Below are positions 140 to 31,252 of a stretch of DNA of 32,000 bases, piece by piece (the stretch's first letter is position 1; each line of letters starts with the position of its first letter). Source of the stretch: Nitrosopumilus maritimus SCM1. GTDB lineage: Archaea; Thermoproteota; Nitrososphaeria; Nitrososphaerales; Nitrosopumilaceae. A program made the translations under genes and the position numbers. A model generated the notes under the pieces. That model was not told where the DNA came from. It saw nothing but the letters and a program-made list of their open reading frames with translations, and did no database searches. The stretch lies in assembly GCF_000018465.1 (NCBI RefSeq), contig NC_010085.1:1-32000 (forward strand), given 5' to 3'.

Positions 140-1348
140 GTGAGTATGTCTGATCCGATTGATAGATTATTAGATGCAGCTGAATCTGGCAAATCAATTA
201 TCAAAAACAGGGAGATCCTACATTTTACCTATATTCCAAAAACCATCCAACATAGGAATACTGAACAAGAACAAGTTACCCAATCACTCTTACCAATTCT
301 CAAACAATCAAGACCTTCCAATCTTTTGGTATATGGTAAACCTGGTACTGGCAAAACACTTGTCGTCAAAAAAGTTATCTCAAAAATCCAAGAGAGGGTA
401 GAGAAATCAAATTTCCCGATAAAACTAATCTACTCAAACGCAAAAAAAGAGACCACATTATACGGTTTATTGGTCAGTTTTGGGCGTCAATTAGGGCTAT
501 CTGACAAAGAATTACCCTCAACTGGTCTTGCCATCAGTGAGGTGTTCAAACGTATCCTGAATAATATTGATCAGGAAAAAACCAATGTTGTCTTTGTAAT
601 TGATGAGATAGATTACCTAGCAGAACTAGTATCAAAGACTGGAAAGGACATCCTTTACCAACTAACCAGAGCAAACGAAAACCTCAATTCTGGATCATTG
701 ACTTTGATTGGAATTTCAAATGACTTGACCTTCAAAGAAAAACTAGACCCTAGGGTAATCAGCAGTCTGGGAGAGGAGGAGATTGTCTTTACAAATTATG
801 ATGTTGAACAAATAAAAAAAATTCTAGAGGAGAGGATATCTGAAGCCTTTGAGGCCGAATCTGTGGATGAATCTGCTCTAAACTTATGCGCTGCTCTGGC
901 AGGAGGAGAACACGGTGATGCAAGACGGGCAATAGATCTGATTAGAGTTGCAGGCGAACTTGCTGAAAGACAACAATCAGACAAAGTCACTGAAACCCAT
1001 GTCAGAGATGCATCTCAAAAAATTGAAGAAAACAAAGAAGAGACATCCCTCAAATCATACCCACTTCACGAAAAACTAGTCATACTTGCTATAATGAAGG
1101 CCAATGGCTCTTCTACTGGAGAAATATACTCTTCATACAAAAACCTCTGTAAAGTTGTAGGACGAGATGAGCTTACCCAAAGAAGAATCACACAAATGCT
1201 AAGTGAAATTGAACTTTCTGGAATAATCTCTGGAAGATTGGTCCATCAAGGAATTCATGGTAGGACAAAAAAATACAAACTAACAATATCATCTGAAATG
1301 GTAAAAAAGACCTTCAAAGATGATTTAACTTTGCAAGATATTGTCTAG
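140..1348 (+). CDS. cdc6: Orc1/Cdc6 replication initiator (AAA+ ATPase with C-terminal winged helix)
   Basis: 402-aa ORF. Walker A GKPGTGKT, Walker B VFVIDEID and a GDARRAIDL sensor region are typical of archaeal Orc1/Cdc6. GTG at 140; first ATG at 146 is an alternative start. Confidence 0.93.
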   Translation: MSMSDPIDRLLDAAESGKSIIKNREILHFTYIPKTIQHRNTEQEQVTQSLLPILKQSRPSNLLVYGKPGTGKTLVVKKVISKIQERVEKSNFPIKLIYSNAKKETTLYGLLVSFGRQLGLSDKELPSTGLAISEVFKRILNNIDQEKTNVVFVIDEIDYLAELVSKTGKDILYQLTRANENLNSGSLTLIGISNDLTFKEKLDPRVISSLGEEEIVFTNYDVEQIKKILEERISEAFEAESVDESALNLCAALAGGEHGDARRAIDLIRVAGELAERQQSDKVTETHVRDASQKIEENKEETSLKSYPLHEKLVILAIMKANGSSTGEIYSSYKNLCKVVGRDELTQRRITQMLSEIELSGIISGRLVHQGIHGRTKKYKLTISSEMVKKTFKDDLTLQDIV

Positions 1349-22331: not shown

Positions 22332-22431
22332 TAATTCTAAAATTATTTGTAATTTATTAGATAAACTGTTAAATAGTTGAAGTTCCTATAATAATTAATG
22401 CCGAAGGATATAATTCCTATCGACTAAAATC

Positions 22432-22526
22432 GCGTAACCCCGCAGAACGATATAGGCAATCAAGCGCTGAAGTCGTTTGACAACGAGAGGGAATCTCTCA
22501 TAGTTCTGCAATGAAGGGGATTACGC
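22432..22526. ncRNA. unassigned structured-RNA candidate (long closing helix plus two hairpins)
   Basis: GCGTAA/TTACGC, CCCC/GGGG and GCAGAAC/GTTCTGC are nested pairings enclosing hairpins at 22461-22479 and 22485-22499. By hand count the element is about half G+C, inside an AT-rich 200-nt spacer. The strand is not resolved. Confidence 0.4.
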
Positions 22527-22531
22527 CTCTT

Positions 22532-22960
22532 TTAATTTTGTAAAATACTAACAGATACCGAACCCATCACATTTCCATTTGGATTGATACTGATCTTTAC
22601 TTGCTGTTTTTCTGAAATCATAATTTGATTTTCTCCAAGATATTCCCATGTATAATATTCAGAAATTCCTGTTTCATGTAGAGTGTTTTCTAATTTGAAA
22701 TCTTCAGAAAATTCTATACTATAACCATCTAATGAAATTGATAAAATTTCTGGACTACTTCCATTTGGAACAAATCTAAAATAATATTCACCGCTTTCTA
22801 TTTCAAAAGTTTCTGTATATTCTCCATTTACATACAATTGTGGGTCTGCTAGTGTCACATGAAAAACAATACCATCATCTTTCTCAGATGAATCCAAAGA
22901 CAACACCATAACAAATCCTACAATTATTGCAATAGGAACGATGATGATTTTTTTGTTCAT
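22532..22960 (-). CDS. membrane-anchored or secreted beta-rich protein (142 aa)
   Basis: N-terminal hydrophobic anchor IIIVPIAIIVGFVMVLSL followed by a beta-strand-like sequence. It has its own TATA-like element in the 37-nt spacer upstream. Confidence 0.6.
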   Translation of the reverse strand: MNKKIIIVPIAIIVGFVMVLSLDSSEKDDGIVFHVTLADPQLYVNGEYTETFEIESGEYYFRFVPNGSSPEILSISLDGYSIEFSEDFKLENTLHETGISEYYTWEYLGENQIMISEKQQVKISINPNGNVMGSVSVSILQN

Positions 22961-22997: not shown

Positions 22998-23549
22998 CTA
23001 GTTTTCTCTTATTTTTTTGGTTAGTGCTTCTATTTTTTCAAGTTGTTCTAAAATCCATGGGTCATTTATCAAATCCATAATTTCTTCCATTTTGAATAAT
23101 TTCGGTGTAGTCATACCTTCTTCAAAATCATATAATTTGATAATTCTATTTTTTATATTTTCAGATTCGATCTTTTTGTTCTGTGCAAAATTATGTGCAA
23201 AATCATTTCTAATTTCTCTAATTTCATTTAGTTTTTGTTGAATCTTTATTCTTGTTTTTTCCTCAATTTCTTTTTTGAATTCTTGATGATTTTTCATTAT
23301 TCTTGATATCCAAACTATTTTTGTTCCAAAAGATGCGGTTCTATCCTCATCAAATACAGTTTTTGCCCACAACGGAAAATCATTTTTGTCACGTAAAAAT
23401 AAGTCTGAAATAATTACCGTTAGTGTTGAATCTAAAACTGAAACATAGCTAAGAAAATTACCTCTAATTCGATTTACCAAATTGACATATTCTTTATCTG
23501 TTAATTCTTTGGAATTATCTGGCAAATCAAAACCAAATGGCTCACTCAT
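22998..23549 (-). CDS. HEPN-superfamily protein (MtlR/DUF4145/Abi-like) with Rx4H motif
   Basis: 183 aa and all-helical in character. EIRNDFAHN (R114-H119, nt 23193-23210) fits the HEPN R-N-x3-H signature and is preceded by the SFGTKIVWISRI helix, as in DUF4145/MtlR-type HEPN domains. Confidence 0.6.
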   Translation of the reverse strand: MSEPFGFDLPDNSKELTDKEYVNLVNRIRGNFLSYVSVLDSTLTVIISDLFLRDKNDFPLWAKTVFDEDRTASFGTKIVWISRIMKNHQEFKKEIEEKTRIKIQQKLNEIREIRNDFAHNFAQNKKIESENIKNRIIKLYDFEEGMTTPKLFKMEEIMDLINDPWILEQLEKIEALTKKIREN

Positions 23550-30577: not shown

Positions 30578-31252
30578 TTATTTTAGATATTTTGTTTTGT
30601 CTGTAACTCCTGCTTTCTCAAATGCAATCTTTCTATTATTGCAAGACTCACAAACACCACAATGCAGTTTTTTGTTTGAATAACAACTCCAAGTTCTAAA
30701 GATGGAATCACCTAACACTTTCTTTCCTTTCTTTAACAAGTCACTTTTTGATAACCCTTCTCTGTATGGAGACCAAATCTTTATCTTTTTTCTTATTTTT
30801 GAATTAATCCCATCAATCTCGCCTTGATTGAATGCTGATTCTAGTTTCTTTGCAAAGGCAGGTCTGCAATCCGGATAGTACTTGTCTCCTGTATGTGCAC
30901 CATAAACGACTAGGGATGCGTTTAGGGTATATGCCCATGCAGATGCAACTGAGAGAAACACTGCATTTCTAATTGGTACTACTATAGAGTACTCAAATTT
31001 GCTTGGAATCTTTCTTTTTGAGCTAGTCAAGACATTAGAGTCACCGTACAACTCTTTCATAAAACCAATATCGATAATCTTGTGCTGTTTTAGTCCTAAT
31101 TTCTTTGCAAATGATTTTGTAGCAGAAATCTCCATGTTTGCTTTCTGACCATATGAAAAAGTAATTCCATACAACTCGTACTTTGATTTTAGAAATGATA
31201 CTGCACAAACAGAGTCAACTCCTCCACTAAAAACAACTACTGCTTTTTTCAT
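30578..31252 (-). CDS. queC: 7-cyano-7-deazaguanine (preQ0) synthase
   Basis: 224 aa. PP-loop VVFSGGVDS and the C-terminal zinc motif CYSNKKLHCGVCESCNNR. Confidence 0.9.
   Translation of the reverse strand: MKKAVVVFSGGVDSVCAVSFLKSKYELYGITFSYGQKANMEISATKSFAKKLGLKQHKIIDIGFMKELYGDSNVLTSSKRKIPSKFEYSIVVPIRNAVFLSVASAWAYTLNASLVVYGAHTGDKYYPDCRPAFAKKLESAFNQGEIDGINSKIRKKIKIWSPYREGLSKSDLLKKGKKVLGDSIFRTWSCYSNKKLHCGVCESCNNRKIAFEKAGVTDKTKYLK

What the first reader, a model, noticed from the sequence alone, without database searches (positions are those of the whole stretch)
22385..22539. Unassigned GC-enriched structured RNA candidate in a 200-nt spacer
The core 22432-22526 is about half G+C by my hand count, while the flanks are strongly AT-rich.

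Nested complementarity:
- GCGTAA (22432-37) pairs with TTACGC (22521-26).
- CCCC (22438-41) pairs with GGGG (22516-19), leaving A22520 bulged.
- GCAGAAC (22442-48) pairs with GTTCTGC (22503-09), leaving AATGAA (22510-15) as a one-sided internal loop.

Inside this 17-bp closing helix are two hairpins. CAAGCG/CGTTTG (22461-66 / 22474-79) has the loop CTGAAGT and one G-U pair on the plus strand. GAGAG/CTCTC (22485-89 / 22495-99) has the loop GGAAT. On the minus strand this second stem extends by a U-G and an A-U pair.

On the plus strand there is a TATA-like CCTATAATAATT (22385-96) upstream and T-runs CTCTTTTAATTTT (22527-39) downstream. On the minus strand the element begins 5 nt after the stop of the 22532-22960 gene and is followed by GATTTT.

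I could not fit it to other RNA classes. It has no tRNA T-arm. It is too short for 5S and lacks loop-E/CCGAAC-type motifs. C/D box order is wrong, and it does not resemble SRP or RNase P RNA.
Basis: seen in the sequence. Interest (0 to 1): 0.7.

Follow-up and report, generated by a model that had tools for sequence, protein, structure and literature searches.

The report
New small structured RNA in Nitrosopumilus
The GC-rich island is a real, independently transcribed, about 135-base structured RNA gene of the marine ammonia-oxidising archaeon Nitrosopumilus maritimus; it is conserved across its family, matches no described RNA family, and its function is unknown.

Summary
The element is not chance: a covariance model finds it in every related locus with enough sequence, about 200 loci in all.

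It is larger than reported. An invariant TTAAATA box (22369-75) sits 29 nt before an invariant ATG (22398). Then come a 5' hairpin capped by an NNAA tetraloop (22400-24), the three-way junction (22432-22526) and an oligo-T stop (22530-39).

Fourteen base pairs covary (157 double-change cells against 43 in shuffles, 0/500). G·U pairs favour the + strand 62 to 5.

The flanking genes differ between clades. One genome carries two diverged copies and two lineages carry decayed copies, so this is a free-standing RNA gene family.

Rfam 15, ARAGORN and literature searches found no match.

Most likely it is a compactly folded trans-acting RNA, probably protein-bound. Its helices P2b and P4 are sequence-invariant, whereas the junction strands vary.

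One open oddity: the transcript should start at an AUG that opens a 9-codon frame, kept in 161 of 162 variants, although the peptide itself is not under selection. Function is untested.

The parts
22362..22375 (+). Promoter: an A-rich BRE-like stretch followed by the TATA box TTAAATA (22369-75)
   Evidence: TTAAATA is about 99% conserved and sits, without gaps, 29 nt before the ATG in 167 unique upstream sequences from all clades. Long ORFs in these genomes show a peak of TATA-like motifs at the same -27 to -31 distance from their ATG.
22385..22394 (+).
   Evidence: Conserved at -16 to -11 from the ATG in all clades. It is too close to the hairpin to serve as the TATA box.
22398..22427 (+). 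Predicted 5' end at an invariant AUG, opening a 9-codon frame (MPKDIIPID) with stop TAA at 22425-27
   Evidence: 161 of 162 genuine unique variants keep ATG + 8 codons + stop (TAA 119, TAG 38, TGA 4). There are no gaps in alignment columns 1-30. The amino-acid sequence is not under selection. The transcription start is inferred from the TATA spacing, not measured.
22400..22424 (+). P1, the 5' hairpin, with apical tetraloop ATAA at 22410-13
   Evidence: Pair 9-25 is A-U in 58 sequences, U·G in 25 and U-A in 11. Pair 7-27 changes from C-G to U-A in L141. Pair 13-20 switches between A-U and U-A. The loop is NNAA or GNRA (GUAA, GCAA, GGAA, GAAA, AUAA) across clades. The hairpin is present in the minimum-free-energy fold.
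22425..22431 (+). A-rich single-stranded linker (UAAAAUC)
   Evidence: It tolerates 1-2 nt indels, unlike P1.
22432..22441 (+). P2a 5' strand (GCGTAA CCCC); pairs with 22516-22526
   Evidence: Covarying pairs: 40-146 U-A in 70 and C-G in 11; 41-145 varies among A-U, U-A and G-C; 46-141 C-G in 84 and U-A in 6; 47-140 C-G in 83 and U-A in 3.
22442..22448 (+). P2b 5' strand GCAGAAC; pairs with 22503-09
   Evidence: 99% paired and sequence-invariant in the protein-anchored set. The only variation is G-C to G·U at the outer pair, in 13 of 72 sequences.
22449..22460 (+). J2/3 junction strand
   Evidence: It differs between clades: GAUAUAGGCAAU, GAAAAAGGCAAU, AUAAGUGAAUG.
22461..22479 (+). P3 hairpin with a variable loop
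   Evidence: 5 of its 6 pairs show changes on both sides. The loop varies in length and sequence.
22485..22499 (+). P4 hairpin GAGAG/CTCTC with a G-N-A-A-U loop
   Evidence: 99% paired. The closing pair changes from G-C to A-U in 4 sequences. The loop is GGAAU, GAAAU or GUAAU, and AAA in one paralogue.
22503..22509 (+). P2b 3' strand GTTCTGC
   Evidence: See the P2b 5' strand.
22510..22515 (+). One-sided 6-nt bulge (AATGAA)
   Evidence: Always present, but variable in sequence and by 1-2 nt in length.
22516..22526 (+). P2a 3' strand (GGGG A TTACGC)
   Evidence: See the P2a 5' strand.
22530..22539 (+). Oligo-T termination signal TTTTAATTTT; it overlaps the stop codon (22532-34) of the convergent gene 22532-22960
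   Evidence: A run of at least 4 T follows P2a directly in nearly all copies of all three types. Its role as a terminator is inferred from what is known of archaeal termination at oligo-T.

Best explanation
Window 22398 to about 22535, + strand, is a free-standing gene for a structured non-coding RNA of about 135 nt. It represents a family not in Rfam. The organism is Nitrosopumilus maritimus SCM1.

Transcription would start about 29 nt after an invariant TTAAATA box and stop at an oligo-U run.

The RNA folds into two parts:
- a 5' hairpin (P1) capped by an NNAA/GNRA-type tetraloop;
- a 17-bp bipartite closing helix (P2a/P2b, with a one-sided bulge) that closes a three-way junction carrying a variable hairpin (P3) and an invariant hairpin (P4) with a G-N-A-A-U loop.

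Shown here: conservation, covariation, strand, promoter motif, independence from the neighbouring genes, and paralogy.

Inferred: it acts in trans as a compactly folded, stable RNA, most probably as the RNA part of a protein complex or as a protein-binding regulator. The sequence-invariant helices P2b and P4, together with the two GNRA-type loops, would form the recognition and tertiary-contact surface.
For: **Source.** The adjacent 142-aa protein is 100% identical to N. maritimus ABX11927.1 on a 1,645,259-bp contig.

**Conservation.**
- 80 loci were fetched through the flanking SDR protein, so they were not selected on the RNA. A covariance model finds one copy in all 77 that include the region, always at the same place and on the strand opposite to SDR. 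The 72 full-length, non-duplicate matches at E<=1e-9 score 62-168 bits, and all but L065 reach 115 or more.
- 118 of 120 metagenome loci found by a DNA pattern carry it.
- 8 of 8 loci fetched through divergent homologues of the 142-aa protein carry it.

**Structure.**
- In the 72 SDR-anchored sequences, 93.6% of cells are paired and 70 cells show changes on both sides, against 19.9 in shuffles (0/500).
- In 95 sequences from all clades, 14 of 35 pairs show changes on both sides, in 157 cells against 43.4 in shuffles (0/500). When the partners are slid by 1-3 columns, only 36-53% of cells pair.
- All helices except P2b show at least one pair changed on both sides.

**Strand.** In the junction helices, 62 cells are G·U on the + strand against 5 on the - strand. 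P1 of the second clade uses U·G pairs, which read as pairs only on the + strand.

**Promoter and end.** TTAAATA lies at a fixed -29 from the ATG in all clades. Protein genes in these genomes show the same TATA-to-ATG spacing. A T-run follows P2a.

**Free-standing gene.**
- The neighbours are SDR and the 142-aa gene in one type.
- They are a GtrA-like gene and the 142-aa gene in a second type.
- They are an 86-aa zinc-ribbon gene and purP in a third.
- They are purE and purK in L141.
- Genome OZ242220.1 has both the SDR-locus copy (L026, 148 bits) and a purP-locus copy (L202, 115 bits).

**Arguments for a protein-bound or tertiary-folded RNA rather than a base-pairing or ligand-sensing one.**
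- The longest invariant stretches (CCCCGCAGAAC, GAGAGGAAAUCUCUC, GUUCUGC) lie inside helices.
- The junction strands, bulge and linker differ between clades.
- Two loops are of GNRA type.
Against: - No transcript data could be consulted, so the 5' and 3' ends and even expression itself are inferred.
- No protein partner is known, and no protein gene co-occurs consistently.
- Copies have decayed in two lineages (L014, L065), so this locus at least is dispensable there.
- The invariant AUG at the predicted 5' end, the conserved in-frame stop and the indel-free 27 nt between them are not explained by a purely non-coding model.
- The invariance of P2b and P4 in the metagenome set is partly forced by the search pattern. 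Only the protein-anchored sets count for it.
- A mutual-information scan found no long-range tertiary pairs.
Confidence: 0.6

Rival explanations
1. Dual-function or translation-coupled RNA. The transcript is a leaderless mini-mRNA. Ribosomes start at the 5'-terminal AUG, read 9 codons through P1 and stop at UAA, 4 nt (22428-31) before P2a. This transiently unfolds P1 and the closing helix. The act of translation, not the peptide, would control the activity or stability of the three-way-junction domain.
For: - ATG + 8 codons + stop is kept in 161 of 162 unique variants, in all three types and both paralogues. The stop varies only among TAA, TAG and TGA.
- All 9 one-step changes seen in the stop codon keep it a stop, against 19% expected at random.
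- There are no indels in alignment columns 1-30, whereas the linker, the P3 loop, the bulge and the tail all have them.
- A and U of the AUG are unpaired yet invariant, while positions -1 and -2 vary.
- TATA-to-ATG spacing is the same as for the leaderless-type protein genes of these genomes.
Against: - The peptide is not conserved (MPKDIIPID, MSLVVKSGD, MRKDANPID...).
- One-step changes in codons 2-9 are 21% synonymous against 22% expected at random, and are spread evenly over the three codon positions.
- A 10-bp stem plus tetraloop has a fixed length for structural reasons, which alone could explain the absence of indels.
- Frame 3 is also open in 50 of 70 variants.
- L141 has lost the ATG but keeps the hairpin through a compensatory change and an intact core.
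- The decayed copy L014 still has the open frame.
- The G of the AUG is already paired in P1.
Confidence: 0.2
2. Trans-acting antisense regulator that pairs with target mRNAs through a conserved seed.
For: It is a stand-alone small RNA with its own promoter and terminator, and some genomes hold paralogous copies, as for many regulatory small RNAs.
Against: No conserved unpaired stretch is longer than about 6 nt. The junction strands, the P3 loop, the bulge and the linker differ between clades, whereas the invariant stretches are locked in helices. No target search was possible beyond the fetched loci.
Confidence: 0.1
3. Ligand-sensing (riboswitch-like) three-way junction. It would decide between stopping at the oligo-U run and reading through as antisense RNA into the convergent downstream gene.
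For: It has a purine-riboswitch-like topology. It always lies tail-to-tail with a gene. The purP, purE and purK neighbours of some copies hint at purines. A-rich J2/3 can pair with the GCCUUUU tail in many sequences (read directly from the alignment).
Against: - The junction strands that would form the pocket are not conserved between clades.
- The convergent gene differs between types (the 142-aa gene versus purP).
- In L141, purK has its own TATA box 33 nt before its ATG.
- The J2/3-tail pairing shows no compensation and is broken in L027, L030 and L031.
- No loop-loop covariation was found.
Confidence: 0.04
4. A - strand element: the 3' UTR or terminator hairpin of the 142-aa gene (22532-22960), which begins 5 nt after its stop and is followed by TTTT.
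For: The - strand folds slightly better in the single sequence. The element abuts the stop codon, and the complement of the conserved UAAAA linker is a T-run.
Against: - G·U asymmetry is 62 to 5 in favour of the + strand.
- An invariant TATA box is placed for + strand transcription.
- The element also occurs without the 142-aa gene, next to purP or purK.
- P1 U·G pairs would be C·A mismatches on the - strand.
Confidence: 0.03
5. A DNA-level palindrome (a protein operator), or a chance GC-rich inverted repeat.
For: GCAGAAC...GTTCTGC and CCCC...GGGG are sequence-invariant inverted repeats.
Against: Compensatory changes preserve pairing rather than sequence in P1, P2a, P3 and P4. G·U pairs would have no meaning in duplex DNA. 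The arms lie 54-80 nt apart.
Confidence: 0.01

Closest known systems
Purine-type riboswitch aptamers (three-way-junction sensors)
   Same: A closing helix plus two hairpins around a three-way junction; similar size of the junction domain.
   Different: The junction strands are not conserved. P3's loop is variable, so no kissing loops. There is no gene downstream on the same strand. There is an extra 5' hairpin. No Rfam hit.
Small RNP RNAs with a long terminal stem and oligo-U tail (Y RNA, vault RNA type)
   Same: About 100-135 nt. A long bulged stem. A 3' U-run. One to two diverged paralogues per genome. Sequence-invariant stem segments of the kind a protein reads.
   Different: Here the long stem is not formed by the two ends of the RNA, because a 5' hairpin precedes it. 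No Ro/TROVE or vault protein is known in these archaea (my own knowledge, not tested). No sequence or Rfam similarity.
5S rRNA
   Same: A three-way junction RNA of about 120-135 nt that is GC-enriched in an AT-rich genome.
   Different: No RF00001 hit even at E<=10. The arms are 19 and 15 nt instead of about 35 nt with loops B, C, D and E. There is an extra 5' hairpin. It decays in some genomes.
Bacterial dual-function small RNAs and leaderless small ORFs (SgrS/SgrT, RNAIII/hld, mycobacterial leaderless uORFs)
   Same: A short ORF on a structured regulatory RNA. An AUG at the predicted 5' end.
   Different: There are only 9 codons, with no amino-acid conservation. The ORF coincides with a covarying hairpin. 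Translation is untested. The comparison with the bacterial examples is from my own knowledge.
Archaeal guide sRNAs (box C/D, H/ACA)
   Same: Small, independently transcribed, structured archaeal RNAs.
   Different: There is no RUGAUGA/CUGA box pair, no kink-turn, no two-sided pseudouridylation pocket and no ACA at the 3' end (sequence read directly).

Membership tests
Any Rfam 15 family | Covariance-model score at or above the family's gathering threshold | tested here: not met
   No hit on the element at gathering thresholds in the window or in 10 related loci. At E<=10 there is no hit on the element in the window, and in the L132 stretch only a 14-bit match (gathering score 90, E 3.3) to a fission-yeast snoRNA model, which I take as chance.
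tRNA (including intron-containing) | Cloverleaf with a T-arm and an anticodon arm | tested here: not met
   ARAGORN found nothing in the window, with or without the intron option. The only hit at a relaxed threshold lies at 22542-22660 on the - strand, inside the 142-aa gene and not on the element.
5S rRNA | RF00001 match; helices II-III and IV-V with loops B, C, E and D | tested here: not met
   No hit at E<=10. The arms are simple hairpins of 19 and 15 nt.
Box C/D sRNA | C box RUGAUGA near the 5' end and D box CUGA near the 3' end, forming a kink-turn | tested here: not met
   There is no TGATGA anywhere in 22398-22539. The only CTGA lies in the non-conserved P3 loop (alignment).
H/ACA sRNA | Hairpin with a two-sided pseudouridylation pocket, and ACA about 3 nt from the 3' end | tested here: not met
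   The internal loop is one-sided. The 3' end is GCCUCUUUU.
Hammerhead ribozyme | CUGANGA and GAA core strands between the three stems | tested here: not met
   The junction strands are GAUAUAGGCAAU, ACAAC and AUA, and they vary between clades.
Riboswitch (cis-acting ligand sensor) | A conserved ligand pocket | tested here: not met
   The junction strands differ between clades.
Riboswitch (cis-acting ligand sensor) | A regulated gene downstream on the same strand | tested here: not met
   The downstream gene is convergent in all three recurrent gene contexts. In L141, purK has its own TATA box.
Riboswitch (cis-acting ligand sensor) | Ligand binding | not testable with these tools
   Needs in-line probing or calorimetry.
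Leaderless small-ORF mRNA / dual-function RNA | AUG at the 5' end of the transcript | tested here: inconclusive
   The TATA spacing predicts a start at the A of the ATG, but the 5' end was not measured.
Leaderless small-ORF mRNA / dual-function RNA | Reading frame conserved | tested here: met
   161 of 162 variants keep ATG + 8 codons + stop.
Leaderless small-ORF mRNA / dual-function RNA | Purifying selection on the peptide | tested here: not met
   The synonymous fraction is 21% against 22% expected at random, and changes show no bias by codon position.
Independently transcribed archaeal ncRNA gene | Own BRE/TATA promoter at a fixed distance, and an oligo-T terminator | tested here: met
   These are sequence motifs only; no transcript data were available.
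Independently transcribed archaeal ncRNA gene | Structure conserved by compensatory change on the transcribed strand | tested here: met

The most novel reading that the evidence does not exclude
The RNA is a translation-sensing riboregulator unique to ammonia-oxidising archaea. A leaderless 9-codon frame, whose peptide is irrelevant, is read by ribosomes that thereby open P1 and the closing helix of a protein-binding three-way-junction domain. This would couple the activity of an as yet unknown ribonucleoprotein to the cell's translational status.
Probability: 0.15. Interest if true: 0.85.

Novelty: categorically new. Interest (0 to 1): 0.62.

Why it matters
Nitrosopumilus and its relatives are among the most abundant microbes in the ocean and drive marine nitrification. 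Apart from rRNA, tRNA, SRP RNA and RNase P RNA, almost nothing is known of their non-coding RNAs.

This RNA is about as conserved as the neighbouring enzyme gene (median 78% against 80% nucleotide identity). It has its own strong-looking promoter. It sits in the cultivated model strain SCM1, so it can be tested directly.

A new compactly folded RNA with sequence-invariant helices usually points to an unknown protein partner or activity. The conserved leaderless mini-frame adds a mechanistic question that can be tested.

Tried and rejected
- **Rfam.** Searched at gathering thresholds and at E<=10, on the window and on related loci. No family matched the element; the hits near it were weak and looked like chance: greA leader and SNORD121A inside the 142-aa gene, and a 14-bit (E 3.3) fission-yeast snoRNA model over the L132 copy.
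- **ARAGORN.** Run with introns and at a relaxed threshold. The only hit was spurious and lay off the element.
- **Viral link.** One pattern match in IMG/VR (L081) and one metagenome locus (L157) were not confirmed by the covariance model, so they are chance matches.
- **Pseudoknot or tertiary pairs.** A corrected mutual-information scan gave only P1-internal, clade-level signals.
- **Alternative pairing of J2/3 (AAAAGGC) with the 3' tail (GCCUUUU).** No compensation; broken in L027, L030 and L031.
- **L4 (GGAAU) pairing with AUUCC in P1.** Perfect only in the N. maritimus group; no covariation.
- **Kink-turn, loop E, bulge-helix-bulge splice motif, GAAA 11-nt receptor in P1, and Shine-Dalgarno mimicry by P4.** Examined by eye. 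None fits or is conserved.
- **cis-leader of purK in L141.** Rejected, because purK has its own TATA box at -33.
- **Link to the HEPN-like 183-aa gene.** Rejected, because that gene is present in only a minority of loci.
- **Literature.** Eight full-text searches (Nitrosopumilus with ncRNA, small RNA, leaderless, SCM1 transcriptome, and Nmar_0029-0032) found no description of this RNA.

Full report
**Observation**

The single sequence folds into the described three-way junction on either strand. The + strand gives -35.4 kcal/mol, z -3.5; the - strand gives z -4.0.

The core has 47-50% G+C. The flanking spacer has 14-17% and the window as a whole 34%.

Rfam 15 gives no hit on the element, either at gathering thresholds or at E<=10. 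ARAGORN finds no tRNA, also when introns are allowed.

**Source**

The adjacent 142-aa protein is 100% identical to ABX11927.1 of Nitrosopumilus maritimus SCM1, on a 1,645,259-bp contig.

By accession order, and from the CdvB paralogue Nmar_0029 named in PMC3684127, the RNA should lie between Nmar_0031 (the 142-aa gene) and Nmar_0032 (the SDR gene). This assignment is an inference.

**Conservation**

Eighty Nitrosopumilus and Nitrosarchaeum loci were fetched through the flanking SDR protein, so they were not selected on the RNA.
- nhmmer, and then a covariance model (R1), find exactly one copy in each of the 77 loci that include the region.
- The copy is always just upstream of SDR and on the opposite strand.
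- The other three loci end before the site.

It runs from a TTAAATA box, through an ATG and a 25-nt hairpin, to the junction domain and a T-run.

**Structure and strand**

On the 72 SDR-anchored sequences:
- 93.6% of cells form pairs.
- 70 cells show changes on both sides of a pair, against 19.9 in column shuffles (0/500).

On 95 sequences from all clades:
- 14 of 35 pairs have changes on both sides, in 157 cells, against 43.4 in shuffles (0/500).
- Sliding the partners by 1-3 columns drops pairing to 36-53%.

By helix:
- P3 covaries at 5 of 6 pairs.
- P2a covaries at 4 pairs.
- P1 covaries at 9-25 (A-U 58, U·G 25, U-A 11), at 7-27 and at 13-20.
- P4 covaries at its closing pair.
- P2b never changes, except G-C to G·U at its outer pair.

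In the junction helices, 62 cells are G·U on the + strand against 5 on the - strand. The RNA is therefore read from the window's + strand.

The full 136-nt sequence, and a diverged paralogue, both fold into P1 plus the three-way junction as their minimum-free-energy structure.

**Promoter and ends**

TTAAATA, preceded by an A-rich stretch, sits 29 nt before the ATG without gaps in 167 unique upstream sequences of all clades.

In archaea the TATA box is centred about 26-27 nt before the start site (established knowledge). That places the start at or next to the A of the ATG (22398).

Long ORFs in the same set of sequences show a peak of TATA-like motifs 27-31 nt before their ATG. This is the leaderless arrangement, and the RNA shares it.

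A run of at least four T follows P2a in nearly all copies. Oligo-T is the archaeal termination signal (established knowledge).

The ends themselves were not measured.

**A free-standing gene family**

A metagenome scan with a DNA pattern returned 120 loci. Of these, 118 carry the RNA. Forty-five of the 118 have neither SDR nor the 142-aa gene nearby.

Reading the neighbours gives three recurrent contexts and one single-locus arrangement:
- Between SDR and the 142-aa gene.
- Between a GtrA-like gene and the 142-aa gene. This was confirmed in 8 of 8 loci fetched through divergent 142-aa homologues, so without selecting on the RNA.
- Between an 86-aa zinc-ribbon gene and purP.
- L141 alone places it between purE and purK, where purK keeps its own TATA box.

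Genome OZ242220.1 holds both the SDR-locus copy (L026, 148 bits) and a purP-locus copy (L202, 115 bits). These two types are therefore paralogues. Five other purP loci have no copy.

The copies in L014 and L065 have lost the P2 helices.

The one viral-contig match was a chance match.

**What it most likely is**

The longest invariant stretches (CCCCGCAGAAC, GAGAGGAAAUCUCUC, GUUCUGC) are inside helices. The junction strands, bulge, linker and P3 loop differ between clades.
- This argues against a seed-type antisense RNA.
- It also argues against a ligand pocket or catalytic core at the junction.
- It fits helices that are read by a protein or used as tertiary receptors.

P1 ends in an NNAA tetraloop, often GNRA. 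P4 ends in G-N-A-A-U. Such loops commonly dock into helices. This docking is an inference; no covariation supports a specific contact.

I therefore favour a compactly folded, trans-acting RNA that is probably protein-bound.

**The open oddity**

The predicted 5' end is an invariant AUG. It opens a frame of exactly 9 codons.
- 161 of 162 genuine unique variants, across all types, keep this frame closed by TAA, TAG or TGA.
- There are no indels in that stretch.

Against a coding role:
- The peptide differs freely between copies.
- One-step changes are 21% synonymous against 22% expected at random, with no bias by codon position.
- L141 lost the ATG while keeping the hairpin.
- A stem plus tetraloop has a fixed length anyway.

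I rate at about 0.2 the reading that translation as such matters, by opening P1 and P2a.

**Limits**

- No transcriptome data and no protein partner.
- Distribution outside Nitrosopumilaceae is untested.
- The invariance of P2b and P4 in the pattern-derived loci is partly imposed by the pattern.
- No description of this RNA was found in eight literature searches, but subscription journals are not covered.

Noticed in passing
L204:4085-4290, L203:5340-5600, and the purP-downstream spacers of L205 and L206 (strand opposite to purP): A different conserved element of about 105 nt. It has a 10-bp closing stem GTCAATTGGC/GCCAATTGAC, with a compensatory GTTAATTGGC/GCCAATTAAC in L206. It also has a large internal loop and an upper stem, and ACA follows the stem directly. 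This looks like an archaeal H/ACA guide RNA. Rfam gives no hit at E<=10 that fits it.
   Followed up: partly
window 22998-23549 (-): The 183-aa protein next to the 142-aa gene has weak, sub-threshold Pfam matches to Abi_2 and HEPN_RiboL-PSP. It carries an R-N-D-F-A-H (Rx4H) motif, so it may be a HEPN-type RNase. It is present in only a minority of related loci.
   Followed up: partly
L014:5732-5871 and L065:5741-5870 (- strand): These are decayed copies of the RNA at the SDR locus. L014 has drifted to 26% G+C and lost P2. L065 has lost the 5' strands of P2a and P2b but keeps the 3' strands. Whether these genomes keep a functional copy elsewhere, for example next to purP, was not tested.
   Followed up: partly
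L141:10200-10260: After the RNA, L141 keeps a relic (accatcaaatttccattttgatt) of the 3' end of the 142-aa gene, although the gene itself is gone and purK follows. This indicates that the purE/purK context arose by rearrangement of the ancestral 142-aa locus.
   Followed up: no
window and 60 long loci, upstream of long ORFs: TATA-like motifs peak 27-31 nt before the first ATG of long ORFs. This is consistent with mostly leaderless mRNAs in these genomes.
   Followed up: partly
window 842-931 and 30857-30946: Two other 90-nt stretches have 50-53% G+C in this 34% G+C window. I did not check whether they are coding or RNA.
   Followed up: no
L206:4085-4415 (strand opposite to purP): The spacer holds what reads as a tRNA-Phe gene (GGTGCCATGGTAGCTCAGCC...TTCAAATCCCGCCCGTGGCAC). 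I saw this by eye only.
   Followed up: no
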